The notes below the pieces were generated by a model. The model ran no database searches, had not been told where the DNA came from, and worked only from the letters and a program-made list of their open reading frames with translations. From contig CACDMT010000003.1 of assembly GCA_902553945.1 (NCBI GenBank), positions 9,332 to 73,331 on the forward strand: a DNA stretch of 64,000 nucleotides. The letters run 5' to 3'. Source of the DNA: an uncultured Alphaproteobacteria bacterium. Lineage in GTDB: Bacteria; Pseudomonadota; Alphaproteobacteria; HIMB59; GCA-002718135. This document shows, piece after piece, positions 20,263 to 64,000 of this stretch (the first letter of the stretch is position 1; each line of letters begins with the position of its first letter). A program made the position numbers and the translations under genes.

Positions 20263-20338
<76 letters not shown>

Positions 20339-20372
20339 TTAATTAAAAATTAAAATATTCATAATTTGTTTT

Positions 20373-21134
20373 CTATATTTTATAAAACTCATAAAGAGCT
20401 ATAGCAGTAGCATTTGATACATTTAAACTTTCAATTTGGTATTTTAAGTTAACTTTCATTTCTAATTTTATGATTTCATCACATTCTTTTTTTATTAAAT
20501 CTCTCATTCCTTTTCCTTCCGAACCAAAAACTAATACTGACTTTTTAGCAAAACTTAATTTAGAATTACCATTATTTGAGCTATCAAAACCATAGACCCA
20601 ATAATTATTGTTTTTGAGATTTGAAATAGTTCTTTTTAAGTTCGTTACTCTAAAATAGTTTACAACTTCAGCTGCGCCTGATGCTGCTTTAAACAAAGAA
20701 GGAGTTAATTCAGGTGCATTATCTTTAGATATTATAATTCCTTTACAATTAAATAAGGCACATGATCTCATGATAGAGCCAATGTTTTGAGGATCTGTTA
20801 TTTGATCTAGAGCTAAAATTATAGATTTAGATTGATTATCTTCATTTTTCAAAAAATCACTTAGGCTTGGCCTTTCAAATTCCTTGGTTTTTAATATTAT
20901 TCCTTGATTTGATTGCTCACTTCCATAAAGTTTTTTAAATTCTTTTTTATTAAGAATAGTGATTTTAGTTGCCTTTAAATTAAATTCTCTAACAAAATTG
21001 CGATTATTTTCATGAAGGATTAGCTCAAAATGTACTCTTTTATCATTTAAAAGGGCTGCTCGGACTGAATGAAGGCCATAAATTGTTTGATTTTTATTGG
21101 AAACATTAGATTTTTTTGATTTAATTTTGGACAT
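20373..21134 (-). CDS. rlmB: SpoU/TrmH-family 23S rRNA (guanosine-2'-O)-methyltransferase, RlmB-like
   Basis: 253 aa. IYGLHSV.AAL N-terminal substrate-binding domain, then LD.I.DP.N.G.I.RS, FG.EG.G and L.V..A..I.L.E motifs of the SPOUT fold. Confidence 0.8.
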   Translation of the reverse strand: MSKIKSKKSNVSNKNQTIYGLHSVRAALLNDKRVHFELILHENNRNFVREFNLKATKITILNKKEFKKLYGSEQSNQGIILKTKEFERPSLSDFLKNEDNQSKSIILALDQITDPQNIGSIMRSCALFNCKGIIISKDNAPELTPSLFKAASGAAEVVNYFRVTNLKRTISNLKNNNYWVYGFDSSNNGNSKLSFAKKSVLVFGSEGKGMRDLIKKECDEIIKLEMKVNLKYQIESLNVSNATAIALYEFYKI

Positions 21135-21259
21135 TTGTTTCTATCACAGATTTATTGAATTAATTCAATCTAGATATATACAAATTCTCTTTTTTTGTCT
21201 AAAAGGCCGTTGCTTTTACGAGTATATGTATTTTGCAAAGGTGAGGTTGCTGTTTTTAA

Positions 21260-21289
21260 TTGACACATGTACTAATTTATTAGTATTTG
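21260..21289 (+). promoter_or_regulatory. candidate sigma70-type promoter for the tRNA-Tyr/tRNA-Gly/tuf transcription unit
   Basis: Perfect -35 TTGACA at 21260-21265, followed by TAGTAT (15-nt spacer) or TATTTG (18-nt spacer). It lies about 15-20 nt upstream of the tRNA-Tyr 5' end. An AT-rich background makes such matches common. Confidence 0.35.
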
Positions 21290-21304
21290 CCAGTTTCTTC
21301 ATAC

Positions 21305-21390
21305 GGAGGGGTGGTCGAGTGGTTAAAGGCAGCGGACTGTAAATCCGCCCGCGTGAGCGTACGTAGGTTCGAATCCTACCCCCTCCACCA
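21305..21390 (+). tRNA. tRNA-Tyr (anticodon GUA)
   Basis: 86 nt with CCA. Acceptor GGAGGGG/CCCCTCC, anticodon arm GCGGA-CTGTAAA-TCCGC, a long variable arm and a GTAGG-TTCGAAT-CCTAC T arm. Confidence 0.95.
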
Positions 21391-21450
21391 AAATGGAGGT
21401 ATAGGATGAAAGCAAAAAGTTGAGTGTGTGATTATGCAGTCAGTTTAGTT

Positions 21451-21524
21451 GCGGGTGTAGCTTAGTGGTAAAGCTCCAGCCTTCCAAGCTGGCTACGAGG
21501 GTTCGATTCCCTTCACCCGCTCCA
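21451..21524 (+). tRNA. tRNA-Gly (anticodon UCC)
   Basis: 74 nt with CCA. Acceptor GCGGGTG/CACCCGC, anticodon arm CCAGC-CTTCCAA-GCTGG and T loop TTCGATT. Confidence 0.95.
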
Positions 21525-21552
21525 TAACAAAATATTTATTGGGGTAAATAAA

Positions 21553-22743
21553 ATGGCAAAAGCAAAATTCGAGAGAAACAAACCGCATTGTAACATAGGT
21601 ACAGTAGGTCACGTTGACCACGGTAAAACTACATTAACAGCTGCTATAACTAAAATATTAGCAGAATCAGGTGGAGCAGAATTTACAGATTATGCTAACA
21701 TCGATAAAGCTCCTGAAGAGAGAGAACGTGGAATTACTATTTCAACTGCTCACGTTGAATATGAAACTGAGAGCAGACATTATGCTCACGTTGATTGCCC
21801 AGGTCACGCAGATTATGTAAAAAATATGATTACAGGCGCTGCACAAATGGATGGTGGGATATTAGTTGTTAATGCTGCTGATGGACCAATGCCTCAAACA
21901 AGAGAACACATATTATTAGCAAGACAGGTGGGTGTACCTGCACTAGTAGTTTATATGAACAAAGTTGATCAAGTTGATGATAAGGAACTTATCGATCTTG
22001 TTGAAATGGAAATTAGAGAGCTTTTAACTTCTTACGAATTCCCTGGTGATACTATCCCAATCATCAAGGGTTCAGCTTTAGCAGCTCTTGAAGGAAGAGA
22101 TGATGAGATTGGAAAAAATTCAATACTTGAATTAATGAAAGCAGTTGATGAGCACATACCACAGCCAAGCAGACCTATTGATCAACCTTTCTTGATGCCA
22201 GTTGAAGATGTTTTTTCAATATCTGGAAGAGGAACTGTTGTTACTGGCCGTATTGAGCAAGGCCAAGTTAAAGTTGGAGAAGAAATTGAGATTTTAGGTA
22301 TTAGAGATGCACAAAAAACAACATGTACTGGTGTTGAAATGTTTAGAAAGCTTTTAGACTCTGGTGAAGCTGGAGATAACGTTGGAGTTCTGCTTCGTGG
22401 AACTAAAAGAGAGGAAGTTGAAAGAGGGCAAGTATTAGCTAAACCTGGTTCAATTAAACCTCACACAAAATTTAAAGCAGAAGCATACGTTTTAAAAAAG
22501 GAAGAGGGTGGTAGACACACTCCTTTCTTCTCTAATTATAGACCACAATTCTATTTTAGAACAACTGATGTAACAGGTACAATTAAGTTACCAGAAGGAA
22601 CTGAAATGGTCATGCCTGGTGATAATATTGCTATGGAAGTTACATTACTTTCACCTATTGCAATGGACAAAGGTCTAAAATTTGCAATTAGGGAAGGTGG
22701 TAGAACAGTTGGTGCTGGAGTTGTAGCTGAGATTATTGAATAG
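21553..22743 (+). CDS. tuf: translation elongation factor Tu
   Basis: 396 aa. [18 protein letters not shown] and NKVD GTPase motifs, with near-universal EF-Tu sequence throughout. Confidence 0.99.
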
Positions 22744-22782
22744 TTTTAGAGACCGCTCTGCAAGTTCTATTACTCAAAATAT

Positions 22783-22858
22783 AGGAGTGTAGCTCAACTG
22801 GTAGAGCACCGGTCTCCAAAACCGGGGGCTGCGGGTTCAAGTCCTGCCACTCCTGCCA
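22783..22858 (+). tRNA. tRNA-Trp (anticodon CCA)
   Basis: 76 nt with CCA. Acceptor AGGAGTG/CACTCCT, anticodon arm CCGGT-CTCCAAA-ACCGG. It sits in the conserved position between tuf and secE. Confidence 0.95.
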
Positions 22859-52205: not shown

Positions 52206-52292
52206 GCGGCTGTGGCGGAATTGGTATACGCGCAGCGTTGAGGTCGCTGTGGGATTTATCCTGTGGAAGTTCAAGTCTTCTCAGCCGCACCA
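52206..52292 (+). tRNA. tRNA-Leu (anticodon GAG)
   Basis: 87 nt with CCA. Acceptor GCGGCTG/CAGCCGC, anticodon arm CAGCG-TTGAGGT-CGCTG, long variable arm and T loop TTCAAGT. Confidence 0.93.
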
Positions 52293-53695: not shown

Positions 53696-55036
53696 ATGTT
53701 AAAAAAGAATGATTTAATAGAATACTTTTATAAAGGTATTAAAGATAAGAATAATTTAAAGATTGGCGTTGAACATGAAAAGTTTGTTCTTAACAAAAAT
53801 GATTATCAGCAAGTTTCTTATGAAATGAAAAATGGCATTAAAGACATTTTACTTAGATTTTTAAATAATGGATGGAAACCAAAATATGATGATGAAGGGG
53901 TAACAATAATCGCTTTAGAAAGATTTGGAGAAAATATAACCTTAGAGCCTGGTGGTCAGATAGAGTTATCAGGAGCACAATTAAATAATATTCATCAAAC
54001 ATGCACTGAAACAACAAGACACCTAAAAGAATTAAAAGAAATAGGTGAAGAATTTGATTTTATTTTACTTGGATTAGGTGTTGAACCAAGTCTAAAACTT
54101 GAAGAGCTTCCTTGGATGCCTAAACAGAGATATAGTATAATGAAAAATTACATGCCAACTGTTGGAACTTTAGGACATCATATGATGAAGAGAACATGTA
54201 CTAATCAAGTTAATTTAGATTTTTTTTCTGAAGATGATATGAAAAATAAATTTCGTTTAATGTTAAATCTTGAGGGAATAGTAACGGCGATTTTTGCTAA
54301 TTCACCATTTGATAATAAAAAAATATCAGAATATAAAAGTTTAAGAGCTCATTTTTGGCATCATACTGACAATAATAGGACAGGTTTATTACCATTTGTG
54401 TATGATAAAAGTTTCAATTTTGAAATGTATGTTGAATATGCACTAAATATTCCAATGTATTTCATTATCAGAGATCATAAATACATAGATATGACAAAGT
54501 ATACTTTTAAAGAATTTTATGAAGAAAAACCGTTAAGTAAAAACAATATTCAGCCAAATATTGAAGACTGGATCAATCATTTGTCAACATTATTTCCACA
54601 AGTTCGATTAAAACAATTTTTAGAAATTAGATCAATGGATGCTTGTTCTTGGGATTTGATTTGCTCTCAACCTGCGTTTTGGATAGGATTACTTTATAGC
54701 GAAAATTCTTTTAATAAGGCTCAAGAAATTGTTGAGAGTTGGACACAGGATGACAGAGATTATATTAACAAAATTGTTCCAAAAGAAGGCCTGCAAGCAA
54801 AATTTAAAGATGGAACTATTCTTGATATAGCTCAAAATCTCTTTGAAATATCTAAACAAGGTTTAGATGAACGTAATATTTTAGCTAAAAATAAACTTTA
54901 TAATGAAACATACTATTTAAATGATCTTGAAAAAAATTTAGAAAGAGGACAATCACCTGCTGATGTATTAATTGATAAATTTAATAAACAATGGAATCAA
55001 AATATATATAATATTTATTCTGAAAATATATTTTAA
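53696..55036 (+). CDS. gshA: glutamate--cysteine ligase (plant/alphaproteobacterial GCS2 type)
   Basis: 446 aa. IG.EHEKF, ++LEPGGQ.ELSGA, PK.RY..M..YMP..G..G..MM.RTC..QVNLDF and FP.VRLK.+LE.R..D motifs. It immediately precedes gshB. Confidence 0.85.
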   Translation: MLKKNDLIEYFYKGIKDKNNLKIGVEHEKFVLNKNDYQQVSYEMKNGIKDILLRFLNNGWKPKYDDEGVTIIALERFGENITLEPGGQIELSGAQLNNIHQTCTETTRHLKELKEIGEEFDFILLGLGVEPSLKLEELPWMPKQRYSIMKNYMPTVGTLGHHMMKRTCTNQVNLDFFSEDDMKNKFRLMLNLEGIVTAIFANSPFDNKKISEYKSLRAHFWHHTDNNRTGLLPFVYDKSFNFEMYVEYALNIPMYFIIRDHKYIDMTKYTFKEFYEEKPLSKNNIQPNIEDWINHLSTLFPQVRLKQFLEIRSMDACSWDLICSQPAFWIGLLYSENSFNKAQEIVESWTQDDRDYINKIVPKEGLQAKFKDGTILDIAQNLFEISKQGLDERNILAKNKLYNETYYLNDLEKNLERGQSPADVLIDKFNKQWNQNIYNIYSENIF

Positions 55037-55974
55037 TGAAAAAAAAAATTGCAATTCAAATGGACAAAATTGAGAGTATTGATTACAAATTTGATACTTC
55101 TTTTTTAATAGGATACGAGGCACAGCAAAGAAACTACGATATATTTTATTATAACCCTAATGACTTAATTATTAAAAATAACAACGTACAAGCAACAGGC
55201 TTTTATGTGAAATTGAATCTAGATGAAAATGATTATTTCAAGTATGATTCGGAAAAAATTAAAGTAGATTTAAAAAATTATAATTTTATTTTTTTACGTC
55301 AAGACCCACCTTTTGATATGAATTATATTACTTCTACGTATATTTTAGATCTCTTACCAAAGACAACTAAAGTAATTAATAATCCAACAGCAGTAAGAAA
55401 TGCCACTGAAAAATTATTTACATTTAACTTTAAAGAATTTATGCCACCTACAATTGTAACAAGAAATATTAATGATATTAGTAAATTTTTAAATAATGTT
55501 GAAGAAATTATAACTAAACCACTTTATGGAAATGGTGGCGTAGGTATTCATCGATTTAATAAACGAAATTTCAATCCAGATATTTTAAAAAAATATCTAG
55601 ATTTGCCTATAATGATACAAAAATACATTAAAGAAATTGATCAAGGTGATAGAAGAATAATTCTTATTGATGGAGAATATTGTGGATCAGTTTCTCGGAT
55701 TCCAAAAGATGGGGATATAAAGGCTAATTTTCATGCTGGAGGCATACCCTATAAGACAGATTTAGTTTTTCGAGATAAGGAAATTATTGATATACTTGGA
55801 CCAAAATTAAGAAAATTTGATCTATTTTTTGTAGGAATTGATGTTATTGGCAACTACTTGACAGAAATTAATGTTACTTCTCCCACAGGAATTAAGCAAA
55901 TCAACACATTAAATAATGTAAGTCTAGAGAAAGTTTTTTGGGATAAGCTTGAAGCCAAATATAAATTAGTTTAA
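55036..55974 (+). CDS. gshB: glutathione synthetase (ATP-grasp)
   Basis: 312 aa, collinear with E. coli GshB: D.SF....EAQ.R, +R.DPPFD..YI.+TYIL, NEKLF, KPL.G.GG..I.R, GD.R+.+.DGE, R.N..AGG and +VG+D+IG..LTEINVTSPT. Confidence 0.93.
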   Translation: MKKKIAIQMDKIESIDYKFDTSFLIGYEAQQRNYDIFYYNPNDLIIKNNNVQATGFYVKLNLDENDYFKYDSEKIKVDLKNYNFIFLRQDPPFDMNYITSTYILDLLPKTTKVINNPTAVRNATEKLFTFNFKEFMPPTIVTRNINDISKFLNNVEEIITKPLYGNGGVGIHRFNKRNFNPDILKKYLDLPIMIQKYIKEIDQGDRRIILIDGEYCGSVSRIPKDGDIKANFHAGGIPYKTDLVFRDKEIIDILGPKLRKFDLFFVGIDVIGNYLTEINVTSPTGIKQINTLNNVSLEKVFWDKLEAKYKLV

Positions 55975-55999: not shown

Positions 56000-56566
56000 A
56001 TGAATAATGAAAGAATTTTAATAAATAAGTTGAAAAGTTTTGAAAATATAAATTCAAATCTTCTAAATATTGTATTAGCTCTTTTTGGCACCCTATTATT
56101 AGCTATATCCTCTAAAATTCAAGTTCCTTTTTGGCCTGTTCCTATGACAATGCAAACTTTTGTGATTTTTTTAATAGGAATGACATATGGTATTCGTTTG
56201 TCCTTTGCTACAGTTGCATTGTATCTTTTTGAAGGTGCAGCAGGTTTACCAGTCTTTGCATCTGGTGGAGGGATTGCTTATTTAACTGGTCCTACAGCAG
56301 GATACCTTTACGGCATGTTATTTGCTTCAATAGTAATTAGTTACTTCGCAAATTTAGGATTCAGTAAAACCTATTTCAAGGCAACTATTTCACTGCTTAT
56401 TGGATCTATAATAATTTTTTCAATTGGAATAATTTATCTAGGCTCAATTATTGGTTATCAAAAAGCAATAGCAGTTGGGTTACTCCCATTTATTCCTAGT
56501 GAATTATTTAAAATTGCACTAGCAGTTAGCTTAATCCCAACAATTCAAAAAATTATTAAAAAATAA
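56000..56566 (+). CDS. bioY: biotin transporter BioY
   Basis: 188 aa, about 6 TM helices. PVPMT.QTF...L.G, G.P.F+.G.GG....GPT.GYL.G and LP.F+P....K motifs. Confidence 0.88.
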   Translation: MNNERILINKLKSFENINSNLLNIVLALFGTLLLAISSKIQVPFWPVPMTMQTFVIFLIGMTYGIRLSFATVALYLFEGAAGLPVFASGGGIAYLTGPTAGYLYGMLFASIVISYFANLGFSKTYFKATISLLIGSIIIFSIGIIYLGSIIGYQKAIAVGLLPFIPSELFKIALAVSLIPTIQKIIKK

Positions 56567-56571
56567 TTTTA

Positions 56572-57462
56572 ATGAAAATTGGTATTGATTTGGGTGGCAC
56601 CAAAACTGAAGGGATTCTTATTGACTCCAATGGTAAAGAATTAAAGCGTGAAAGAATTAAAACTGAAAAAAACTATGATGGCACTATTAATGGAATATTA
56701 TCAATAGTAAAAAATTTTGAAAGTTCTTTTGGTAATGTTAATTCTATTGGCATAGGTATGCCTGGGGCAATTTCTGCTGACTCCGCATTAATAAAAAATG
56801 CAAACTCGATATGGCTAAATGGTAAACCACTTAAAAAAGATTTAGAAAAAATTTTAAATAGAAAAATCAATTTAGAAAATGATGCAAATTGTTTTGCATT
56901 GTCTGAAGCTGTAGATGGTGGCGGTAAAGGTTATAAAGTTGTTTTTGGTGTAATTATTGGAACAGGTGTAGGAGGCGGTATTGTGATAGATCACAAAGTT
57001 CTCCAAGGTAGAAATAACATAGCCGGTGAGTGGGGACATGTTACTCTTCCAAATAGGTCTGACGATGAAAAGAAATTTGTTAAAGATTGTTACTGTGGAA
57101 AAAATGGTTGTATGGAGACATATATTTCAGGACCTGGTTTTGCTTCAACCTTTAATTTACGTTTTAATAAAAATTATGATTCCCATCAAATACTAGAAGG
57201 TTTTAAAAATGAAAATTCAGACTGTAATTTTGCCCTTAAACAATACACAGATCATTTAGCAAGAGGCTTATCTTTAGTATGCAATATTCTTGATCCAGAT
57301 GTTATCGTGCTAGGAGGAGGAATGTCAAATATTGATTTTATTTATGAAAATATTGATGTAGCCTTAAAAAAATATGTTTTTACAGATACACTTCACACAA
57401 AAGTTGTAAAAAATATTCATGGTGATTCTAGTGGAGTTAGAGGAGCAGCTTGGCTTTCCTAA
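56572..57462 (+). CDS. ROK-family sugar kinase (NagK/Mak-like)
   Basis: 296 aa, collinear with E. coli NagK: G.D+GGTK, GIG.PG, L.NDANCFALSEA, G.I.GTGVGGG, GE.GH and the Zn motif C.CG..GC.E.Y+SG.G. Confidence 0.8.
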   Translation: MKIGIDLGGTKTEGILIDSNGKELKRERIKTEKNYDGTINGILSIVKNFESSFGNVNSIGIGMPGAISADSALIKNANSIWLNGKPLKKDLEKILNRKINLENDANCFALSEAVDGGGKGYKVVFGVIIGTGVGGGIVIDHKVLQGRNNIAGEWGHVTLPNRSDDEKKFVKDCYCGKNGCMETYISGPGFASTFNLRFNKNYDSHQILEGFKNENSDCNFALKQYTDHLARGLSLVCNILDPDVIVLGGGMSNIDFIYENIDVALKKYVFTDTLHTKVVKNIHGDSSGVRGAAWLS

Positions 57463-58910
57463 ATTCCACCCATTGATATATATTTTATAATTAAATAATC
57501 ATCTAAGCCATATCTTGATCCTTCTCTACCCATTCCTGACTCTTTTACTCCACCAAAAGGAACTTCAGGAATAGTTGGTAAACCATTGTTGATAGATACG
57601 ATACCGTATTCCAAAGCTTCTGCTACCCTCCAAACTCGACCAATGTCACGTGAATAGAAATAAGAGGCAAGTCCATACGGGGTGTTATTAGCCATTTTAA
57701 TTACTTCATCATCATTGGAAAATTTATAAACTGGTGCAACGGGACCAAACGTTTCTTCAAATGTTATTTTTGCTTTAGTTGATACATTAGAAAGAACTGT
57801 TGGTTGATAAAAATTTCCTCCAAGAGAATGAACAGCACCTCCGACTGCAATTTTAGCACCTATATTTACAGCATCTTGAACATGATCAATAACCTTTTCT
57901 AAAGATGATTTATCAATAAGTGGACCAGAAACTATACCTTTATCCAAACCATTTCCAACCTTAATATTTTTTACATCATTTGTAAATTTTTCTAAAAAGA
58001 TATCATATACACTTTCATGAACAAAAAGTCTGTTTGTGCAAATACATGTTTGACCACTATTCCTAAATTTACTTTGTAATGCACCAGAAACTGCTTCATC
58101 AATATCTGCATCTTCAAAAACAATAAATGGAGCATGCCCTCCTAATTCCATTGAAATTTTTTTAACTGTTGAAGCACTTTGTTCCATTAATATCTTTCCT
58201 ACTTCTGTTGATCCGGTAAAGGAAATTTTTTTAACATTTGGATTTTTTGTTAATTCCATTCCTATTTCTTTTGCTGAACCAGTAATGATATTAAATACTC
58301 CTTTTGGAAACCCAGCTTTTTTTGCAAGTTCAGCTACTGCTAAAGCTGAGAAAGGTGTTTGACTTGCAGGTTTAACTACAGTTGTACAGCCAACAGCTAG
58401 AGCAGCAGCACATTTTCGAGTTATCATTGAATTTGGAAAATTCCATGGTGTTATAGCTCCAACTACTCCTATCGGTTGCTTAATTATCACAATTCTTTTA
58501 CCTGGCCTAGGATCTGGAATAATATCGCCATAAACTCTTTTGGCCTCTTCGGCATAAAATTCAATATAAGAGGCACCCATTAATATTTCGCCTTTTGCTT
58601 CGGCAAGAGGTTTACCTTGTTCAATCGTCATTATTTTTGCAAGGTCATCAACATTTTCAATAATAAGATCACTCCATTTTTTTAAAATAATCGATCTTTC
58701 TTTTGCAGTTGTATTTTTCCAACTTTGGAAAGCATTATTAGCATGATCTATTACAGATTTTGTTTCCTCAGCTGAAAAGTTTGGAACTTTTCCTATAATT
58801 TCCAAAGTTGCGGGATTATTAACTTCAATGGTTTTACCATTTTGACTATCTGACCATTGGCCATTTACAAAACATTTTTCATTAAAAAGCGATTTATTGT
58901 TTAATTCCAT
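57459..58910 (-). CDS. gabD: NAD(P)+-dependent succinate-semialdehyde dehydrogenase (GabD/Ssd type)
   Basis: 483 aa, near-collinear with E. coli GabD: INGQW, EQGKPLAEAKGEI, ITPWNFP..MITRK, KPASQTPFSALA+AELA, ELGG.APFIVF+DAD+D, catalytic GQTC+C.NR and EETFGP.AP motifs. Confidence 0.9.
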   Translation of the reverse strand: MELNNKSLFNEKCFVNGQWSDSQNGKTIEVNNPATLEIIGKVPNFSAEETKSVIDHANNAFQSWKNTTAKERSIILKKWSDLIIENVDDLAKIMTIEQGKPLAEAKGEILMGASYIEFYAEEAKRVYGDIIPDPRPGKRIVIIKQPIGVVGAITPWNFPNSMITRKCAAALAVGCTTVVKPASQTPFSALAVAELAKKAGFPKGVFNIITGSAKEIGMELTKNPNVKKISFTGSTEVGKILMEQSASTVKKISMELGGHAPFIVFEDADIDEAVSGALQSKFRNSGQTCICTNRLFVHESVYDIFLEKFTNDVKNIKVGNGLDKGIVSGPLIDKSSLEKVIDHVQDAVNIGAKIAVGGAVHSLGGNFYQPTVLSNVSTKAKITFEETFGPVAPVYKFSNDDEVIKMANNTPYGLASYFYSRDIGRVWRVAEALEYGIVSINNGLPTIPEVPFGGVKESGMGREGSRYGLDDYLIIKYISMGGI

Positions 58911-58952
58911 AAGCGTTAATTATAAGAGGTAATCTAAATTAAGGAAATTGTA

Positions 58953-60059
58953 ATGACAATAGTAAATTCTTGGAATGAATGGGACCCACTTAAACATGTT
59001 ATTGTGGGCACAGTAGAAAATTCAAATGTGCCACCAATGGAACCTGCTTTAGAACCTAAAATAAGTAAAGATAGTGGAATGGTAGGATCTCATGGACCTA
59101 GAAGTAAAGAGTCTATAGATAAAGCAAATATTCAGTTAAATAATTTTATTAAAATTCTTGAGTCGTATAACATAAAAGTTGATCGACCAACTCCCATTGA
59201 TTTTACGAAAGTGATTGAAACTCCAGATTGGCAAAATGAAGGTCAATTTGGATGTATGCCTCCAAGGGATGTAATTTTAACAGTTGGAAATGAAATGTTA
59301 GAAGCACCAATGTCATATCGTTGTCGTTGGTTTGAGTACCTTGCTTACAGGCCTCTACTTGAAAAATATTATGATGAAGATCCTAATATGCGTTGGGAAG
59401 CTGCTCCTAAACCTCGCTTAACAAAAGCAACTTATAAATCAAATTATTTACCAGAAGGTATTACAAAAGAACAAAGGTATAAAAAAATTGAAGAAAGGGA
59501 TATGATTCTTACAGAACGGGAACCACTATTTGATGCTGCAGAAGTTTTGCGTTTTGGTAAAGATTTATTTTATCATAATAATTTTACCTCAAACTTAAAA
59601 GGTTTGAATTGGTTGCAAAGACATTTTCCAAACCATCGTGTTCATCAAATAAATTTACCTGGAGAACTAATTCCAACACATATTGATGCATGCTTTACTC
59701 CAGTTAAGCCAGGGATAATAATTATTAACCCAAACAGAAAAATTTCAAATGATCAACGAAAAATTTTTGATGATAATAAATGGGAAATACATGAAGCTGC
59801 ACCTTCTATTCATAATACTCCACCTCCTATGTGTTATTCATCTATATGGTTATCAATGAATGTTTTGATTATAAATCCTAAAACTATATGTGTTGAAGCA
59901 TCAGAGGAAAAAATGATTAAACAAATGGAGGCTTTTGGTATGGATGTAATTCCTGTCCCCTTTAGAGATGCTTATGCCTTTGGTGGAAGTCTTCATTGTG
60001 CAACTACAGATGTTTATAGAGAAGGAGAATGTGAAGATTACTTTCCTAATCAACTATGA
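58953..60059 (+). CDS. amidinotransferase of the L-arginine:glycine amidinotransferase (AGAT/StrB1/CyrA) family
   Basis: 368 aa, collinear with remembered vertebrate AGAT: NEWDPL..VIVG, MPPRD, VGNE.LEAPM..R.R.FEY.AYR, APKP, EP.FDAA, RVH.I, P.HIDA, SS.WLSMNVL and the C-terminal GGSLHCATTDV carrying the catalytic Cys. Confidence 0.85.
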   Translation: MTIVNSWNEWDPLKHVIVGTVENSNVPPMEPALEPKISKDSGMVGSHGPRSKESIDKANIQLNNFIKILESYNIKVDRPTPIDFTKVIETPDWQNEGQFGCMPPRDVILTVGNEMLEAPMSYRCRWFEYLAYRPLLEKYYDEDPNMRWEAAPKPRLTKATYKSNYLPEGITKEQRYKKIEERDMILTEREPLFDAAEVLRFGKDLFYHNNFTSNLKGLNWLQRHFPNHRVHQINLPGELIPTHIDACFTPVKPGIIIINPNRKISNDQRKIFDDNKWEIHEAAPSIHNTPPPMCYSSIWLSMNVLIINPKTICVEASEEKMIKQMEAFGMDVIPVPFRDAYAFGGSLHCATTDVYREGECEDYFPNQL

Positions 60060-60811
60060 AAAATTTTAATCAAAATAATTTTAAAGCAGATTTAAAAGAT
60101 ACTAACTACAATAAAGTAGGCGTTATAACTTTATCAACTGATTTCACAATTGAACAAGATTTCAGAAAAATATGTTATAATCTACCTGTAGATATTTTTT
60201 TTAATAGAATTCCATTTTTGAATCCTCTGACTCATGAAAATTATATCAAGATGGCAGATCATATTACTGAAACAACACATCAGATATTACCTAATGAGAA
60301 AGTTGATGTAGTAGCATATGGATGCACTTCTGGCACAATTGAAATAGGAGAAGAAAGAATAAAATCTGAAATACATAAATCTAAAGCAGACGCCTTAATA
60401 ACTACTCCAATTACTGCTGCAATTAAGGCTTTCAAATTATCGAGTTTCAAAAAAATTGCAGTTCTCACTCCTTACCCCAAAAATGTAAATATCAAAGTAT
60501 ATGACTATTTAATTAAACAAGGGTTTGATATTAAATCTTTTAGTTCATTTAATTTGAATTATGATTCTGAAATTGCAAAGGTTACACAAGATAGTTTAAT
60601 AAAATCAATTTCATCTATAGATTTAACAGAAGTTGATTGTCTATTTGTTTCTTGCACAGCTTTAAAAATTTTAGATTTAATTCAAGATTTGGAAGAAAGT
60701 TTAAAAACAAATATTATCTCAAGTAATCAAGCTATAATATGGGATTCTTTACGTTTATCAAAAACTAACAACAAAATTGATGGTTTTGGCAAACTTTTTA
60801 AATTACATTGA
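60056..60811 (+). CDS. Asp/Glu/hydantoin-racemase-superfamily protein (maleate isomerase/arylmalonate decarboxylase-like; EutA-like)
   Basis: 251 aa. Two pseudo-symmetric Cys motifs (VVAYGCTSG and LFVSCTAL) typical of this fold. ATGA overlap with the amidinotransferase gene. Confidence 0.7.
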   Translation: MKNFNQNNFKADLKDTNYNKVGVITLSTDFTIEQDFRKICYNLPVDIFFNRIPFLNPLTHENYIKMADHITETTHQILPNEKVDVVAYGCTSGTIEIGEERIKSEIHKSKADALITTPITAAIKAFKLSSFKKIAVLTPYPKNVNIKVYDYLIKQGFDIKSFSSFNLNYDSEIAKVTQDSLIKSISSIDLTEVDCLFVSCTALKILDLIQDLEESLKTNIISSNQAIIWDSLRLSKTNNKIDGFGKLFKLH

Positions 60812-60823
60812 TGTAGGTTTAAA

Positions 60824-61786
60824 TTGATTACACTTAAACAAATACAACATGCACATAAGAAAATTTTACCTTATGTTAACTATACTCCGCTAGTCCATTC
60901 TGAATATTTATCAAAAAGTTCTAAAGTAAAACTCAAATTAGAAAATTTTCAAATTACCGGATCATTCAAGTTAAGAGGTGCAGTTAATAAGTTGCTTTCT
61001 TTAAGTGAACAAGAAAAGCAAAAAGGTGTAATTGCAGTTTCTACTGGAAATCATGGAAAAGGAGTAGCTTATGCTTCAAAAGTATTAGGCATTCAATCAA
61101 CAATATATATGTCATCAATGGTTCCCAATTATAGAAAAGAAGCTATTGAAAAATTAGGTGCAAAAGTAGAGATAGTTGGAAAAAATAGTGATGAAGCAGA
61201 TCTGTTTGCTAAAGAATTTTCAAAAGAAAAAAATATTACGTTAATTCATCCCTTTGATGATGAAGATATAATTATTGGGCAAGGAACCGTAGGTCTTGAA
61301 ATGTTAAACGAGTTTCCTGAAGTTGATACTGTTATTATACCTACTTCGGGTGGAGGACTTATTTCTGGAATAGCACAAGCAATTAAACTTCAAAAACCAG
61401 ATACAAAGGTCATTGCTGTATCTATGGAAAGAGGTCCATCTATGTATGAAAGCTTAAAAAGGGGAGAGCCAGTAGATGTTGATGAAGTAGAAACTTTAGC
61501 AGACTGCTTAGGAGGAAGTATTGGCTTGGATAACAAATTTACATTTAACATCGTAAAAGAATATGTAGATGATTTCGTTTTAATAAGTGAAGAAAAAATT
61601 GCAGAGGGTATTAGAATGAATTTCATGGAACATAAAATTGTATCTGAAGGAGCAGCCGCAACAAGTGTTATGGTTGTTAAAGATAAATTAACACCACATC
61701 TTGGAAAAAATATAATTTGTTTAATTTGTGGGGGAAATATTGATTCTGAATTATTTAACAAAGTTTTAAGCCATGCTCATACTTAA
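60824..61786 (+). CDS. threonine/serine dehydratase-family PLP enzyme (EutB-like)
   Basis: TTG start, 320 aa. TPL, E..Q.TGSFKLRGA (PLP lysine), STGNHG.GVAYA and SGGGLISG phosphate loop. No ACT regulatory domain. Confidence 0.8.
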   Translation: MITLKQIQHAHKKILPYVNYTPLVHSEYLSKSSKVKLKLENFQITGSFKLRGAVNKLLSLSEQEKQKGVIAVSTGNHGKGVAYASKVLGIQSTIYMSSMVPNYRKEAIEKLGAKVEIVGKNSDEADLFAKEFSKEKNITLIHPFDDEDIIIGQGTVGLEMLNEFPEVDTVIIPTSGGGLISGIAQAIKLQKPDTKVIAVSMERGPSMYESLKRGEPVDVDEVETLADCLGGSIGLDNKFTFNIVKEYVDDFVLISEEKIAEGIRMNFMEHKIVSEGAAATSVMVVKDKLTPHLGKNIICLICGGNIDSELFNKVLSHAHT

Positions 61787-62747
61787 AAAAAAAGATATTA
61801 TTCAATATGTGACTCTTAATGAAGTCCTAATACCAATAATAGAAGAAGCTTTTATCAGTTTATCAAAAGGAAAAACTGTCATGCCCCCTATTATGAGAAT
61901 TGATATTGAAAAATATCATGGTGAATCAGATGTTAAGGCTGCTTATGTTGAAGGCTTGGATAGTTTTGCGATAAAAATAGCGTCTGGTTTTTTTGATAAT
62001 CCTAAATTAGGCTTACCATCTAGTAATGGATTAATGGTTCTGCTAGACTCTGAGACTGGAGTTATAAAATCTGTCTTATTAGATGAGGGATATTTAACAG
62101 ATACGAGAACTGCAATAGCAGGTGCAATAGCTTCAAAATACTTATCAAATCAAGACTCTAATACTGTTGGAATTATTGGAGCTGGAATTCAAGCAAGGTT
62201 ACAATTGAAAGCAATCTTATTAGTAAGAAAAATTAACAAAATAAATATATGGGCACGAGACCAAGTTAAAGCTACTCAATTTGTAGATAGTCTAAAAGAT
62301 TTAAAAATTGAAATAAACATATCTCAATCTTGTAAGGATTTAGCTAGTGTTTCAGATATCATTATTACAACAACTCCAAGTAAAAAACCTCTTTTAGAAT
62401 TTGATTGGATTAAAAAGGGCACTCATATAACAGCTATGGGATCTGATGCTGAACAAAAAAATGAATTACATCCAAATATAATAAAACTATGTGATACGTA
62501 TGTCCCAGATAGTCAACATCAAACAACTATCTTAGGAGAATTAAACCATGCCATTAAGGAAAATTTAATATCACCTAATGATAAATTCAATGATCTTGGA
62601 AGTATAATTATTGATCCAAGTTTGGGAAGAAAAAATAAAGAAGACATTACAATATGTGATTTGACAGGAACGGGTGTTCAAGATACTGCGATAGCAAGAT
62701 ATACATATAATATCTGTAAAAAAAATAATTTAGGCATTAAAATTTAA
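61773..62747 (+). CDS. ornithine cyclodeaminase/mu-crystallin-family NAD(P) enzyme (EutC-like)
   Basis: 324 aa. LTD.RTA.A.A.A.KYL, Rossmann GIIGAGIQAR, +ITT.T.S..P and H+.AMGSD....ELHP motifs. 14-nt overlap with the preceding gene. Confidence 0.8.
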   Translation: MLILKKKDIIQYVTLNEVLIPIIEEAFISLSKGKTVMPPIMRIDIEKYHGESDVKAAYVEGLDSFAIKIASGFFDNPKLGLPSSNGLMVLLDSETGVIKSVLLDEGYLTDTRTAIAGAIASKYLSNQDSNTVGIIGAGIQARLQLKAILLVRKINKINIWARDQVKATQFVDSLKDLKIEINISQSCKDLASVSDIIITTTPSKKPLLEFDWIKKGTHITAMGSDAEQKNELHPNIIKLCDTYVPDSQHQTTILGELNHAIKENLISPNDKFNDLGSIIIDPSLGRKNKEDITICDLTGTGVQDTAIARYTYNICKKNNLGIKI

Positions 62748-62750
62748 TCT

Positions 62751-64000
62751 ATGAGTCAAGCTGTAATTAACAAAACATCTGATTACTTTAAATCAAAAGG
62801 AGTTGTCCTACCAAGTATTAAGGAATTGCAAAATCCTAAAACTATTAATGAGGATATAAAAAATTCTCTTAAAAAAATTAATAATAATGAAGCTAATCCA
62901 TTAAATTTATTTAGAGTTCATTGGTTTAACAAAAAAGATCAGTCAGGTTTTGCAGACGAACCTGAGCACATTGTACTCCCATCAGAATTTACAGGAGTAA
63001 AAGCAAAAATCATTGTAAACATGGGTAGATATTTCCCTTTAATAACAGCCCATAAGGTTTTAGCTGCATATGGTTGCCTACTTCCAAGAATATTAAATGG
63101 TACTTTTGATTATGAAAAACATAAAGCTGTTTGGCCATCTACAGGCAATTACTGTAGAGGTGGAGTTGCTATTTCACGTATTATGGGACTTAGTAGTATC
63201 GCTATACTTCCAGAGGGAATGAGTAATGAAAGATTTGAGTGGCTTAATAATTGGGTTGAAGATAAAAAAAATATCATAAAGACAAAAGGAACTGAAAGTA
63301 ATGTTAAGGAAATTTACGATGCTTGTAATGAATTAAAAAAAGACAATAAGAATGATATAATTAATCAATTTGATGAATATTATAATTATGGAATTCATCG
63401 TTCAGTAACAGGCCCATCATTTGAAAAATCATTTTTAAAGGTTAAAGGTAATAGTAATTTAACACCAAGATTTTATGTCAGTGCATCAGGTTCGAGCGGC
63501 ACCTTAGCTGCTGGTGATTATCTTAAAGACAAATATCAAACAAAAATTGCAGTTGTAGAAGCTCTAGAATGTCCAACTTTACTTCATGGTGGTTATGGTG
63601 AACATAATATTCAAGGTATAGGAGATAAACACGTCCCGCTAATTCATAATGTAATGAATACTGATTTTGTAGTTGATGTTTCTGATCAAGCCACAAACAA
63701 TCTTAACATGATTTTTAATACTGTTATTGGAAGAAAATTTTTAATAGAGCGAAAAAATTTTGATCCTGTCTTTGTTTCTAGGCTGCCTGAATTTGGTTTT
63801 TCTGCAATAGCTAACATAATTGCTTCAATAAAACTTGCAAAATATATGGATTTAAATAGCAATGATGCAATTATAACGGTTGCTACAGATGGTGCTGATT
63901 TGTACATGTCAGAATTAAATAAAACAATAAACGAATTTAAAAATAATTATGATGAAATTTTATGTGCTGAATTATACGGAAAGCACTTATTAGGTTTATC
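62751..64000 (+). CDS. long CysK/CBS-fold (fold-type II) PLP-dependent enzyme, 5' partial view (runs off the window; absent from ORF track)
   Basis: My own translation from ATG 62751 gives 416 codons without a stop to the window end: MSQAVINKTSDYFKSKGVVLPSIKEL...NLFRVHWFN...ITAHKVLAAYG...PSTGNYCRGGVAISRIMGL...SASGSSGTLAAG...EHNIQGIGDKHVP... The STGN..G.A, glycine-rich loop and H.IQGIGD..+P segments parallel O-acetylserine sulfhydrylase. It has an extra N-terminal region of about 85 aa. Confidence 0.75.
   Translation, partial: MSQAVINKTSDYFKSKGVVLPSIKELQNPKTINEDIKNSLKKINNNEANPLNLFRVHWFNKKDQSGFADEPEHIVLPSEFTGVKAKIIVNMGRYFPLITAHKVLAAYGCLLPRILNGTFDYEKHKAVWPSTGNYCRGGVAISRIMGLSSIAILPEGMSNERFEWLNNWVEDKKNIIKTKGTESNVKEIYDACNELKKDNKNDIINQFDEYYNYGIHRSVTGPSFEKSFLKVKGNSNLTPRFYVSASGSSGTLAAGDYLKDKYQTKIAVVEALECPTLLHGGYGEHNIQGIGDKHVPLIHNVMNTDFVVDVSDQATNNLNMIFNTVIGRKFLIERKNFDPVFVSRLPEFGFSAIANIIASIKLAKYMDLNSNDAIITVATDGADLYMSELNKTINEFKNNYDEILCAELYGKHLLGL

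What the first reader, a model, noticed from the sequence alone, without database searches (positions are those of the whole stretch)
57459..64000. Non-canonical eutABC-like operon led by an arginine:glycine-amidinotransferase homologue and followed by a long CysK-fold enzyme
Five + strand genes (58953 to beyond 64000) are joined by -4, +12, -14 and +3 nt junctions, so they are almost certainly one transcript. They sit 42 bp divergent from a GabD/Ssd-type aldehyde dehydrogenase. The middle three are a two-Cys Asp/Glu-racemase-fold protein (251 aa), an SFKLRG threonine-dehydratase-like PLP enzyme (320 aa) and an ornithine-cyclodeaminase/mu-crystallin enzyme (324 aa). Their order and sizes match the EutA-EutB-EutC trio described for (hydroxy)ectoine utilisation in Sinorhizobium meliloti and Ruegeria pomeroyi, where an ssd gene also belongs to the cluster. 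The components that define that pathway are not visible here: EutD/DoeA ectoine hydrolase, EutE/DoeB deacetylase, DoeD/Atf aminotransferase, EnuR/AsnC regulators and Ehu/Ueh uptake genes. Instead the operon opens with a guanidino-group transferase and continues with a beta-replacement-type PLP enzyme. Racemise, dehydrate, then reduce the imine is generic chemistry for a hydroxylated cyclic or amidine/guanidine amino acid. The block may therefore process a different nitrogen-rich osmolyte (a cyclic amidine or guanidino compound) rather than ectoine. I do not know a characterised pathway with this gene combination.
Basis: partly seen in the sequence, partly recalled or inferred. Interest (0 to 1): 0.7.

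Follow-up and report, generated by a model that had tools for sequence, protein, structure and literature searches.

The report
Split-up ectoine-breakdown genes with extra neighbours
This is the front end of a long same-strand run of small nutrient-breakdown gene sets in a tiny-genome marine bacterium: three genes are close relatives of known hydroxyectoine-utilisation genes, while the amidinotransferase in front and the odd PLP enzyme behind them most likely do other jobs.

Summary
The five + strand genes and the divergent aldehyde dehydrogenase are real, with the stated junctions. Tight junctions are this genome's norm: 82% of same-strand gaps are 15 bp or less.

- **Central trio.** Its best matches are the EutA, EutB and EutC models, at 36-46% identity to a canonical roseobacter cluster. 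The ALDH is 45% identical to that cluster's Ssd.
Most lie past the window edge or in sister genomes. Relatives continue with a 480-aa PLP enzyme, an M20 hydrolase, a metal-free M24, a proline-racemase-family gene, SoxBDAG, then often a DoeA-like ectoine hydrolase. Some sister species carry bona fide EhuABCD plus an AsnC regulator directly after eutC.
- **Open point.** The hydrolase is missing at its usual site in the window's nearest relative, yet EutABC stays under purifying selection.
- **Amidinotransferase.** It is a genuine AGAT-family enzyme. Elsewhere its orthologues sit beside true creatinase, arginase-family or creatininase genes, not Eut genes.
- **PLP enzyme.** Plasmid homologues sit next to sulfite exporters.

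Verdict: a fragmented, interleaved variant of the known ectoine catabolic cluster, not clearly a new pathway. Three of its enzymes remain unassigned.

The parts
57459..58910 (-). Succinate-semialdehyde-dehydrogenase-type aldehyde dehydrogenase (Ssd/GabD-like), divergent from the array
   Evidence: Pfam Aldedh 579 bits. TIGR01780 SSADH 716 bits, above the 646 cut-off. 45% identical to the Ssd of the canonical Leisingera ectoine cluster. Present in every variant of the locus.
58911..58952 (.). 42-bp divergent intergenic spacer between the ALDH and the amidinotransferase gene
   Evidence: Read directly. No Rfam family matches here. Promoter-like matches are at chance level.
58953..60059 (+). Amidinotransferase (L-arginine:glycine amidinotransferase family), 368 aa
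   Evidence: Human AGAT 1JDW/1JDX 248 bits over the full length; SxtG, HsvA and StrB1 come next. Equivalents of D170, D254, H303, D305, R322, S354/S355 and C407 are conserved; N300 is Ile and M302 is Thr. No NCBIfam hit. dN/dS 0.07-0.09.
60056..60811 (+). EutA-like two-cysteine racemase/isomerase-fold protein, 251 aa
   Evidence: TIGR02990 ectoine_eutA 207 bits (cut-off 318); the next family scores only 87 bits. Pfam Amdase. 36% identical to Leisingera EutA. Follows the amidinotransferase in every variant, including L031.
60824..61786 (+). EutB-like PLP-dependent beta-hydroxy-amino-acid dehydratase, 320 aa
   Evidence: NF005680 EutB 384 bits (cut-off 413) and TIGR02991 354 bits, against 319 for IlvA and 214 for BhcB. 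Wherever the record annotates the gene, the best plasmid tblastn hits are called eutB, at about 46% identity.
61773..62747 (+). EutC-like ornithine-cyclodeaminase/mu-crystallin-family NAD(P)H imine reductase, 324 aa
   Evidence: NF006141 444 bits, above the 408 cut-off. TIGR02992 ectoine_eutC 412 bits (cut-off 472). BhcD 180, Pyr2C reductase 154, OCD 118. 46% identical to Leisingera EutC.
62751..64000 (+). First 416 codons of a 480-aa fold-type-II PLP enzyme of unknown function ('PLP480'), cut by the window end
   Evidence: Only weak CysK similarity: 72 bits against a 351 cut-off, and PDB CysK about 57 bits. The AF2 model (pLDDT 77.5) matches CysK/CBS at about 20% identity. Full length in relatives. 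Homologues of 48-50% identity on Bosea and Rhizobium plasmids sit beside TauE/SafE sulfite exporters and M20 hydrolases, with RidA also present in Bosea.

Best explanation
The five genes are the first third of a conserved, co-directional array of 12 to 14 genes in a streamlined marine alphaproteobacterium of the SAR11 / MarineAlpha5 type. The array bundles several small catabolic modules for nitrogen-rich osmolytes. It is not one linear pathway.

**Module 1: ectoine / hydroxyectoine type**
- EutA epimerises at C-alpha.
- EutB is a PLP dehydratase that removes the beta-hydroxyl.
- EutC is an NAD(P)H imine reductase.
- Together they remove the hydroxyl from hydroxyectoine or from its ring-opened products (hydroxy-N-acetyl-DABA, hydroxy-DABA).
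- The divergent Ssd-type ALDH oxidises the terminal semialdehyde.
- In the clade's pan-genome the module is completed by a DoeA/EutD-type ring hydrolase after SoxG, possibly by the M20 amidohydrolase as deacetylase, and in some species by the EhuABCD importer and an AsnC regulator inserted right after eutC.

**Module 2: guanidino group**
- It comprises the amidinotransferase, probably the metal-free M24 hydrolase further down, and SoxBDAG.
- It would handle creatine- or guanidinoacetate-type compounds by moving or hydrolysing the amidino group and passing sarcosine or glycine onward.

**Module 3**
- PLP480 plus the M20 hydrolase would deacylate and then beta-eliminate an as yet unknown amino acid, possibly a sulfonated one.

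**Module 4**
- The proline-racemase-family gene acts on trans-3-hydroxy-L-proline.

**Shown:** homologies, gene orders, presence/absence patterns, purifying selection.
**Inferred:** all substrates and the assignment of genes to modules.
For: **Eut affinity**
- Best-family scores with wide margins over alternatives.
- The plasmid hits that are annotated are all eutB.
- Identity to the canonical Leisingera cluster is even across components: EutA 36%, EutB 46%, EutC 46%, Ssd 45%, EutD-like 44-47%. EhuB is about 57% identical to S. meliloti EhuB, with ligand residues kept. This is what co-diverged orthologues would show.

**Array and variants**
-.
- EhuA, B, C and D are all above their NCBIfam cut-offs, with AsnC alongside, directly after eutC.
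- The EutD-like gene scores 474-486 bits on TIGR02993.

**Modularity**
- L006 lacks PLP480, M20 and M24. L021 lacks the proline-racemase gene.
- L008-L011 and L013 carry transporter inserts between genes.
- EutD and DmdA vary in presence.

**Amidinotransferase has a separate role**
- In about 35 Pelagibacteraceae species it follows an EamA transporter.
- In 7 of them a true creatinase sits between the two (1CHM 544 bits).
- Elsewhere it neighbours an arginase-family gene with a Pot-type ABC transporter, the same metal-free M24 subfamily, or a creatininase-family gene.

**M24**
- All five metal ligands are replaced (C, G, R, D, G) while the catalytic-type His is kept. DoeA, EutD and the Pelagibacter creatinase aligned alongside also lack the ligands.

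**PLP480**
- Plasmid contexts.

**Background packing and function**
- Tight junctions are the genomic norm.
- dN/dS is 0.04-0.12 for all six genes.
Against: - EutA and EutB score below their curated cut-offs.
- EutD is precisely absent at the syntenic site in L103, the window's nearest relative. EutABC is nevertheless conserved, which is odd if the trio depends on EutD.
- No DABA aminotransferase, EnuR or DoeB-type deacetylase was found in any locus read.
- The M20 hydrolase matches DoeB2 no better than a generic carboxypeptidase model (311 against 307 bits, cut-offs 550 and 500).
- ALDH | amidinotransferase - EutA is the one block present in every variant, even L031. This could mean a functional tie that this explanation denies.
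- Whole-region synteny is conserved in the clade, so co-conservation there cannot separate the models.
- No biochemical data exist for EutABC in any organism (PMC5924519).
Confidence: 0.55

Rival explanations
1. The amidinotransferase, EutA, EutB, EutC and the ALDH (with or without PLP480, M20 and M24) form one pathway for a different nitrogen-rich solute: a hydroxylated guanidino or cyclic-amidine amino acid. For example, the amidino group is removed or transferred. The resulting beta-hydroxy diamino acid is then epimerised, dehydrated and reduced, possibly converging on delta-1-pyrroline-2-carboxylate and proline together with the neighbouring hydroxyproline dehydratase.
For: - ALDH | amidinotransferase - EutA is present in every variant, including L031, where EutB to SoxG are gone.
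- The amidinotransferase and eutA overlap by 4 nt.
- EutABC is kept under purifying selection where EutD is missing at its site.
- The metal-free M24 is of the amidine/guanidine-hydrolase type.
- The Eut models are missed by EutA and EutB.
- No transaminase is nearby.
Against: - Outside this clade the amidinotransferase orthologues (59-66% identity) never sit next to EutB or EutC in the roughly 55 such loci read. They have their own recurrent partners.
- A bona fide ectoine importer is inserted right after eutC in sister species.
- Identities to canonical Eut proteins match those of EutD, Ssd and EhuB.
- Overlapping starts are the genomic norm.
Confidence: 0.2
2. The EutABC-like trio has been re-used in this clade for another beta-hydroxy amino acid unrelated to ectoine. 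EutC would serve as the imine or pyrroline-2-carboxylate reductase for the adjacent trans-3-hydroxyproline dehydratase. The nearby Ehu and EutD genes would be an independent ectoine module.
For: - EutD and Ehu are variable while EutABC is near-universal.
- Lineages without the Ldh_2-type reductase next to the proline-racemase gene (L012 type, like the window) have no other candidate reductase in the array.
- EutA and EutB score below their cut-offs.
Against: - EutC scores 412-444 bits on the Eut/cyclodeaminase models but only 154 on the Pyr2C/Pip2C reductase model and 180 on BhcD.
- EutB scores 214 on BhcB.
- Ehu is inserted exactly at the eutC 3' end, not elsewhere.
Confidence: 0.15
3. The block is biosynthetic. 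The amidinotransferase and the PLP and reductase enzymes would make a guanidino or diamino compound, such as an osmolyte or a SbnA/SbnB-like diaminopropionate product.
For: - Characterised bacterial amidinotransferases are mostly biosynthetic: StrB1, SxtG and HsvA are the next PDB hits.
- A CysK-like enzyme next to an OCD-family enzyme recalls SbnA/SbnB (weak hits).
Against: - SbnA and SbnB scores are far below their cut-offs (24 and 112 bits).
- The neighbours are hydrolases, oxidases, an ALDH and importers typical of catabolism.
- The genome is streamlined.
Confidence: 0.04

Closest known systems
Ectoine/hydroxyectoine catabolic clusters of Alphaproteobacteria: S. meliloti ehuABCD-eutABCDE and R. 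pomeroyi / Leisingera enuR-uehABC-usp-eutABC-doeA-doeB-asnC-ssd-atf
   Same: - eutA-eutB-eutC lie in the same order with overlapping junctions, at 36-46% identity.
- An Ssd-type ALDH is adjacent.
- In relatives, a DoeA/EutD-type hydrolase (44-47% identity), EhuABCD (above cut-offs, EhuB about 57% identical to 2Q88) and an AsnC-type regulator lie in the same array.
   Different: - The genes are dispersed over about 18 kb and interleaved with unrelated genes: amidinotransferase, PLP480, M20, metal-free M24, hydroxyproline dehydratase, SoxBDAG.
- There is no EnuR, no Atf/DoeD aminotransferase and no DoeB/EutE of the AstE/AspA type.
- EutD, Ehu and AsnC are presence/absence polymorphisms. None is in the window, and EutD is absent from its usual site in the nearest relative.
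L-arginine:glycine amidinotransferase (human AGAT, PDB 1JDW) and bacterial relatives SxtG, HsvA and StrB1
   Same: Full-length homology (248 bits). The Cys-His-Asp triad and the guanidino- and carboxylate-binding residues are conserved.
   Different: - Two residues of the 300-flap differ (N300 to Ile, M302 to Thr).
- The context is catabolic or transport-linked, not a secondary-metabolite cluster.
- Donor and acceptor are unknown.
Creatinase (P. putida 1CHM) and ectoine hydrolase DoeA (6TWK): the metal-free members of the M24 'pita-bread' fold
   Same: The M24 that follows in relatives has the Creatinase_N plus M24 architecture. It keeps the catalytic-type His and lacks all five metal ligands.
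   Different: - Only about 21% identical to DoeA and weakly similar to creatinase (64-111 bits).
- Its own signature at the ligand positions is C, G, R, D, G.
- It is not in the window itself.
Pelagibacteraceae EamA-(creatinase)-amidinotransferase-(threonine-aldolase-like) locus, as in 'Ca. Pelagibacter' HIMB123
   Same: It carries the orthologous amidinotransferase (about 62% identity), again paired with an amidine/guanidine hydrolase of the M24 fold.
   Different: There is no EutABC next to it. The hydrolase there is a true creatinase (about 65% identical to 1CHM). I found no description of this locus in the papers searched.

Membership tests
Ectoine/hydroxyectoine catabolic gene cluster (Eut/Doe) | EutA (TIGR02990 equivalog) | tested here: inconclusive
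   207 bits against a 318 cut-off. It is the best family by 120 bits. 36% identical to Leisingera EutA.
Ectoine/hydroxyectoine catabolic gene cluster (Eut/Doe) | EutB hydroxyectoine utilisation dehydratase (NF005680 / TIGR02991) | tested here: inconclusive
   384 bits (cut-off 413) and 354 bits (cut-off 413). The next family, IlvA, scores 319. The annotated top plasmid hits are all eutB, at about 46% identity.
Ectoine/hydroxyectoine catabolic gene cluster (Eut/Doe) | EutC (NF006141 cyclodeaminase / TIGR02992 ectoine_eutC) | tested here: met
   NF006141 444 bits, above the 408 cut-off. TIGR02992 412 bits, below 472. 46% identical to Leisingera EutC.
Ectoine/hydroxyectoine catabolic gene cluster (Eut/Doe) | Ectoine hydrolase EutD/DoeA | tested here: inconclusive
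   Not in the window. Present after SoxG in L091, L094, L097, L104 and L105 (TIGR02993 474-486 bits against a 613 cut-off; 44-47% identical to DoeA). Precisely absent at that site in L103, the nearest relative.
Ectoine/hydroxyectoine catabolic gene cluster (Eut/Doe) | N-acetyl-DABA deacetylase EutE/DoeB | tested here: not met
   blastp of Leisingera DoeB against the query proteins, and tblastn against L102, L103 and L104, gave no hit. No AstE/AspA-type gene appears in the Pfam-annotated relatives. The M20 hydrolase hits DoeB2 at 311 bits (cut-off 550), no better than CpsA at 307.
Ectoine/hydroxyectoine catabolic gene cluster (Eut/Doe) | Ssd-type semialdehyde dehydrogenase | tested here: met
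   TIGR01780 716 bits, above the 646 cut-off. 45% identical to Leisingera Ssd.
Ectoine/hydroxyectoine catabolic gene cluster (Eut/Doe) | DABA aminotransferase (Atf/DoeD) and EnuR regulator | tested here: not met
   Leisingera Atf and EnuR gave no hit against the query proteins or against L102, L103 and L104. No aminotransferase or GntR/MocR gene appears in the annotated arrays.
Ectoine/hydroxyectoine catabolic gene cluster (Eut/Doe) | Dedicated importer (EhuABCD or UehABC) and AsnC regulator | tested here: inconclusive
   None in the window's 64 kb. EhuA 398>345, EhuB 289>191, EhuC 232>197 and EhuD 276>205 bits, plus AsnC, lie directly after eutC in L009. tblastn finds the Ehu genes in L008-L011 as far as each locus extends, but AsnC only in L009. 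The same gene order with AsnC, by Pfam, is in L104. EhuB ligand residues are conserved.
Amidinotransferase family (AGAT / StrB1) | Full-length homology with a Cys-His-Asp catalytic triad | tested here: met
   1JDW 248 bits over residues 4-364. The motifs FDAA, HIDA and GGSLHC align with D254, H303 and C407.
Amidinotransferase family (AGAT / StrB1) | Arginine:glycine specificity | not testable with these tools
   D170, D305, R322 and S354/S355 are conserved, but N300 and M302 of the specificity flap are replaced. The residue roles are taken from memory of the AGAT structure papers.
Cysteine synthase (CysK/CysM), considered for the last gene | Score above the equivalog cut-off; about 300 aa; SVKDR lysine motif | tested here: not met
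   72 bits against a 351 cut-off. The protein is 480 aa with N- and C-terminal extensions and has an AHK lysine motif. Foldseek shows about 20% identity to CysK.
Beta-hydroxyaspartate cycle BhcB/BhcD; ornithine cyclodeaminase; catabolic threonine dehydratase | Equivalog scores for the dehydratase and reductase | tested here: not met
   BhcB 214 (cut-off 550), BhcD 180 (500), OCD 118 (350), TdcB 292 (453). All lie below the Eut model scores.

The most novel reading that the evidence does not exclude
The always-conserved core (Ssd-type ALDH | amidinotransferase - EutA - EutB - EutC) is a self-contained, undescribed route in a widespread group of streamlined marine bacterioplankton. It would act on a hydroxylated guanidino or cyclic-amidine amino acid. 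The amidinotransferase would salvage the amidino group (for example onto ornithine or glycine) instead of releasing urea. The Eut-like trio would then deoxygenate the remaining beta-hydroxy diamino acid. This would explain why the trio persists where the ectoine hydrolase is missing.
Probability: 0.15. Interest if true: 0.75.

Novelty: new variant of a known kind. Interest (0 to 1): 0.45.

Why it matters
Ectoine and hydroxyectoine are widely made compatible solutes and usable as nutrients, yet I found no paper describing their catabolism in SAR11-like or HIMB59-like streamlined bacterioplankton. EutABC has never been assayed in any organism.

This locus, together with its natural variants (with or without Ehu, EutD, EutBC, or PLP480/M20/M24), offers a set of ready-made 'knock-outs'. 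These could be used to assign the Eut steps.

Three protein families common in marine metagenomes have no assigned substrate:
- the amidinotransferase (2675 database hits);
- PLP480 (more than 8000 hits);
- the metal-free M24.

The amidinotransferase's pairing with true creatinase in Pelagibacter bears on marine creatine and guanidino-nitrogen cycling. It may also bear on the unexplained sarcosine-to-creatine flux reported from North Pacific isotope tracing (PMC9321204).

Tried and rejected
- **Exact look-up of the window's EutC protein:** not on record. The locus had to be extended through homologues.
- **Bhc, OCD, IlvA and TdcB assignments for the trio:** rejected on scores.
- **The in-array M24 as EutD or as creatinase:** rejected. 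It is 21% identical to DoeA, scores 53 bits on TIGR02993, and has different active-site residues from creatinase.
- **The Pelagibacteraceae Ehu-like binding protein as the known arginine binder SAR11_1210 (8HQR):** rejected, since 8HQR is not among its PDB hits.
- **L031 (amidinotransferase-EutA-EutD-DmdA) as independent evidence linking the amidinotransferase to EutD:** down-weighted. It looks like a deletion of EutB to SoxG from the common array.
- **PLP480 function by structure:** Foldseek gave only generic CysK/CBS matches.
- **Riboswitch or other RNA upstream:** none found.
- **Co-transcription from public RNA:** only short contigs, none spanning a junction.
- **Literature:** no paper links amidinotransferases to ectoine. 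The AEGEAN-169/HIMB59 paper does not mention these genes.
- **Photobacterium context of the amidinotransferase:** uninformative apart from the EamA, SSF and AraC neighbours.
- **Exact clade of the window:** not determined.

Full report
**1. Observation**

The ORFs are as described:
- an aldehyde dehydrogenase on the minus strand at 57459-58910;
- a 42-bp spacer;
- + strand genes at 58953-60059 (368 aa), 60056-60811 (251 aa), 60824-61786 (320 aa), 61773-62747 (324 aa) and 62751 to beyond 64000 (416 codons, open).

The junctions are -4, +12, -14 and +3 nt. The window has about 30% G+C and is 96% coding. Across its 60 same-strand junctions the median gap is 0, and 82% are 15 bp or less. Tight packing is therefore the background here and says little about shared function.

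No terminator-like site lies in 56500-64000, and no Rfam element lies upstream. Marine metatranscriptome contigs cover parts of four of the genes but span no junction.

**2. What the proteins are**

- **ALDH.** It passes the SSADH subfamily model, 716 bits against a 646 cut-off.
- **First + strand gene.** It is a genuine amidinotransferase. It aligns over its full length with human AGAT (248 bits). The Asp-His-Cys triad and the guanidino- and carboxylate-binding residues are conserved, and two residues of the specificity flap are changed. NCBIfam has no model for it. Some NCBI records call its relatives 'serine/threonine protein kinase'.
- **Central trio.** The best family for each is the Eut model:
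  - EutA 207 bits (cut-off 318; next family 87);
  - EutB 384 bits (cut-off 413; IlvA 319, BhcB 214);
  - EutC 444 bits on NF006141 (cut-off 408) and 412 bits on TIGR02992 (cut-off 472).
- **Plasmid comparison.** In a tblastn against 72,556 plasmids, the best hits of the EutB-like protein are called eutB wherever the record annotates the gene, at about 46% identity.
- **Canonical cluster comparison.** Against the Leisingera aquaemixtae cluster (enuR-uehABC-usp-eutABC-doeA-doeB-asnC-ssd-atf), identities are EutA 36%, EutB 46%, EutC 46%, and ALDH against Ssd 45%.
- **Last gene.** It is a 480-aa fold-type-II PLP enzyme with only weak CysK similarity (72 bits against a 351 cut-off). An AlphaFold model (pLDDT 77.5) matches CysK and CBS at about 20% identity and nothing more specific.

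**3. Beyond the window**

The exact proteins are not on record. Homologues at 63-94% identity lie in fully syntenic contigs, running rpoA ... mgtE, gshAB, bioY, ROK, ALDH.

*The full array.* In these contigs the array continues as PLP480, an M20 amidohydrolase, a Creatinase_N + M24 protein, a proline-racemase-family protein, and SoxB-D-A-G.
- The M20 passes TIGR01891. It scores 311 bits on DoeB2 (cut-off 550) and 307 on CpsA.
- The best hit of the proline-racemase-family protein is trans-3-hydroxy-L-proline dehydratase, 420 bits against a 550 cut-off.

*The ring hydrolase.* In five lineages (L091, L094, L097, L104, L105/L106) a DoeA/EutD-type hydrolase follows SoxG. It scores 474-486 bits on TIGR02993 and is 44-47% identical to Leisingera DoeA. 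A DmdA-like gene often follows it.

*The importer.* In L009 and L104 an insert sits exactly between eutC and PLP480. L008, L010 and L011 carry the same insert but without a detectable AsnC. The insert holds:
- a TorA/BisC-type molybdoenzyme;
- EhuA, EhuB, EhuC and EhuD, all four above their NCBIfam equivalog cut-offs;
- an AsnC/Lrp regulator on the opposite strand.

The EhuB there scores 273 bits (about 57% identity) against the S. meliloti ectoine-binding protein 2Q88. Its Glu, aromatic-box and Arg ligand positions are conserved or conservatively replaced.

The window's edge, and the fact that only one genome was read, hid them.

**4. The locus is a mosaic**

Natural variants show that blocks come and go independently:
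- L006 lacks PLP480, M20 and M24, and has an Ldh_2-type reductase beside the proline-racemase gene.
- L021 lacks the proline-racemase gene.
- L013 and L020 have a Pot-type ABC transporter after the M20 gene.
- MarineAlpha5 bins have DUF4396 and DsbA genes before Sox.
- L031 has only amidinotransferase-EutA-EutD-DmdA, which looks like a deletion of EutB to SoxG.

EutD itself is a presence/absence polymorphism at a fixed site. L105 and L103 align at about 83% on both sides of the gene, and L103 lacks exactly that gene. L103 is the window's nearest relative seen (PLP480 93% amino-acid identity). I therefore cannot say whether the window's genome has EutD.

All six window genes are under strong purifying selection against L103 and L002, with dN/dS of 0.04-0.12.

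**5. The amidinotransferase elsewhere**

Its orthologues are strikingly conserved, at 59-66% identity across Alphaproteobacteria, Desulfobacterales and Thermoleophilia. Outside the window's clade, none of the roughly 55 loci read has EutB or EutC next to it. Its recurrent neighbours are as follows.
- **Pelagibacteraceae (about 35 species).** It directly follows an EamA transporter. In 7 species a true creatinase lies between the two; the HIMB123 protein scores 544 bits, full length, against P. putida creatinase 1CHM. A threonine-aldolase-like gene follows in about 18.
- **Filomicrobium and another bin.** It is divergent from a Pot-type ABC transporter and an arginase-family hydrolase.
- **A Desulfosarcinaceae bin.** It sits between an OTCase-like gene and an M24 that is 41% identical to the array's M24.
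- **A Thermoleophilia bin.** It lies next to a creatininase-family gene.

The array's M24 has lost all five metal ligands of prolidase. They are replaced by C, G, R, D and G, invariant in six sequences, and the catalytic-type His is kept. Loss of the ligands is also seen in DoeA, in the EutD-like proteins and in the Pelagibacter creatinase aligned alongside, although the residues that replace them differ in each.

The simplest reading is that this amidinotransferase belongs to guanidino-compound metabolism of the creatine or guanidinoacetate type. In the window's clade its likely partners are the metal-free M24 and SoxBDAG, not EutABC.

**6. PLP480 elsewhere**

The only near-full-length plasmid homologues (48-50% identity) are in Bosea vaviloviae and Rhizobium sp. 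NXC24. In both they lie near TauE/SafE sulfite exporters and M20 hydrolases. Bosea also has RidA, a gamma-glutamyltransferase, a TRAP transporter and a TPP enzyme nearby; Rhizobium has an amino-acid ABC transporter.

This suggests beta-elimination on an acylated, possibly sulfonated, amino acid, with the M20 hydrolase as partner. It argues against PLP480 being a step of the Eut pathway. This is an inference from context only.

**7. Mechanism proposed**

- *Shown:* homologies, orders, variants, selection.
- *Inferred from the family chemistry and from the published proposals (PMC5924519; PMC13188858, citing the 2020 EutD/EutE work):* EutA epimerises, EutB eliminates the beta-hydroxyl through PLP, and EutC reduces the resulting imine. 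Hydroxyectoine, or its ring-opened forms, is thereby converted to the non-hydroxylated compound. A DoeA-type hydrolase and a deacetylase (candidate: the M20) give DABA. An unlinked transaminase and the Ssd-type ALDH then give aspartate.
- *Status in the literature:* according to those papers, the EutABC steps have not been biochemically tested in any organism.

**8. What does not fit**

- EutABC persists where EutD is missing at its site.
- ALDH | amidinotransferase - EutA is the one invariant block.
- No transaminase, EnuR or DoeB-type gene is seen anywhere in the loci read.

**9. Comparison and novelty**

This is a fragmented, interleaved variant of the known alphaproteobacterial ectoine catabolic cluster. 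It sits in a streamlined marine lineage where I found no published description.

It is not a full member by the curated criteria:
- EutA and EutB score below their cut-offs;
- DoeB, Atf and EnuR are absent;
- EutD and Ehu are variable.

It is best filed as a new variant of a known kind. The unassigned amidinotransferase, the metal-free M24 and PLP480 are the parts most worth an experiment.

Noticed in passing
L077 7856-12153; L063 7856-19737 (Pelagibacteraceae, e.g. 'Ca. Pelagibacter' sp. HIMB123): A conserved EamA - (true creatinase, about 65% identical to 1CHM) - amidinotransferase - threonine-aldolase-like locus. L063 also has a PhyH/chlorinase-like dioxygenase and an Ehu-like ABC transporter 5-9 kb downstream; its EhuB-like protein is below cut-off and the Glu ligand is lost. 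This may bear on marine creatine and guanidino-nitrogen cycling.
   Followed up: partly
L105 8531-9706 against L103 19914-19926: The DoeA/EutD-type ectoine hydrolase is a clean presence/absence polymorphism between SoxG and a DUF3726 gene among relatives about 83% identical in DNA. The DmdA-like gene next to it is also variable.
   Followed up: yes
L009 13835-16129; L104 2109-4403: A cytoplasmic-type TorA/BisC-family molybdopterin S/N-oxide reductase (910 bits on TIGR00509, cut-off 1018) travels with the EhuABCD/AsnC insert after eutC. Its link to ectoine use, if any, is unknown.
   Followed up: no
window 58953-60059 and relatives P0020, P0024, P0032, P0084: Several NCBI records name this amidinotransferase family 'serine/threonine protein kinase'. 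This looks like an annotation error. JGI calls it glycine amidinotransferase.
   Followed up: partly
L031 9983-14150 (MarineAlpha5_Bin12): A variant locus: ALDH | amidinotransferase - EutA - EutD-like - DmdA. It is apparently a roughly 13-kb deletion of EutB to SoxG. EutA stays intact without EutB and EutC.
   Followed up: partly
L100 9070-10404 (Bosea vaviloviae plasmid); L101 8920-10419 (Rhizobium sp. NXC24 plasmid): PLP480 homologues (48-50% identity) lie next to TauE/SafE sulfite exporters and M20 hydrolases. The Bosea locus also holds RidA, GGT and a TPP enzyme. This hints at organosulfonate or N-acyl amino acid metabolism.
   Followed up: partly
window 17310-20081 (+): A 923-aa ORF with weak similarity (23% over 490 aa) to the molybdopterin oxidoreductase of the Ehu insert. 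It is probably another molybdoenzyme and was not examined.
   Followed up: no
window 61390-61761 (-): A 123-aa antisense ORF lies wholly inside the EutB-like gene. It is almost certainly a chance ORF.
   Followed up: no
window 20263-22858 and 52206-52292: Five tRNA genes (Thr, Tyr, Gly, Trp, Leu). The region downstream of the first four, to about 50 kb, is a run of same-strand ORFs. Syntenic relatives show ribosomal protein S11, rpoA and L17 at its 3' end.
   Followed up: no
window 53696-55974: A GCS2-type glutamate-cysteine ligase and a glutathione synthetase, overlapping by 1 nt, lie just upstream of bioY and a ROK-family kinase. They illustrate how unrelated genes are packed as tightly as the genes of the finding.
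   Followed up: partly
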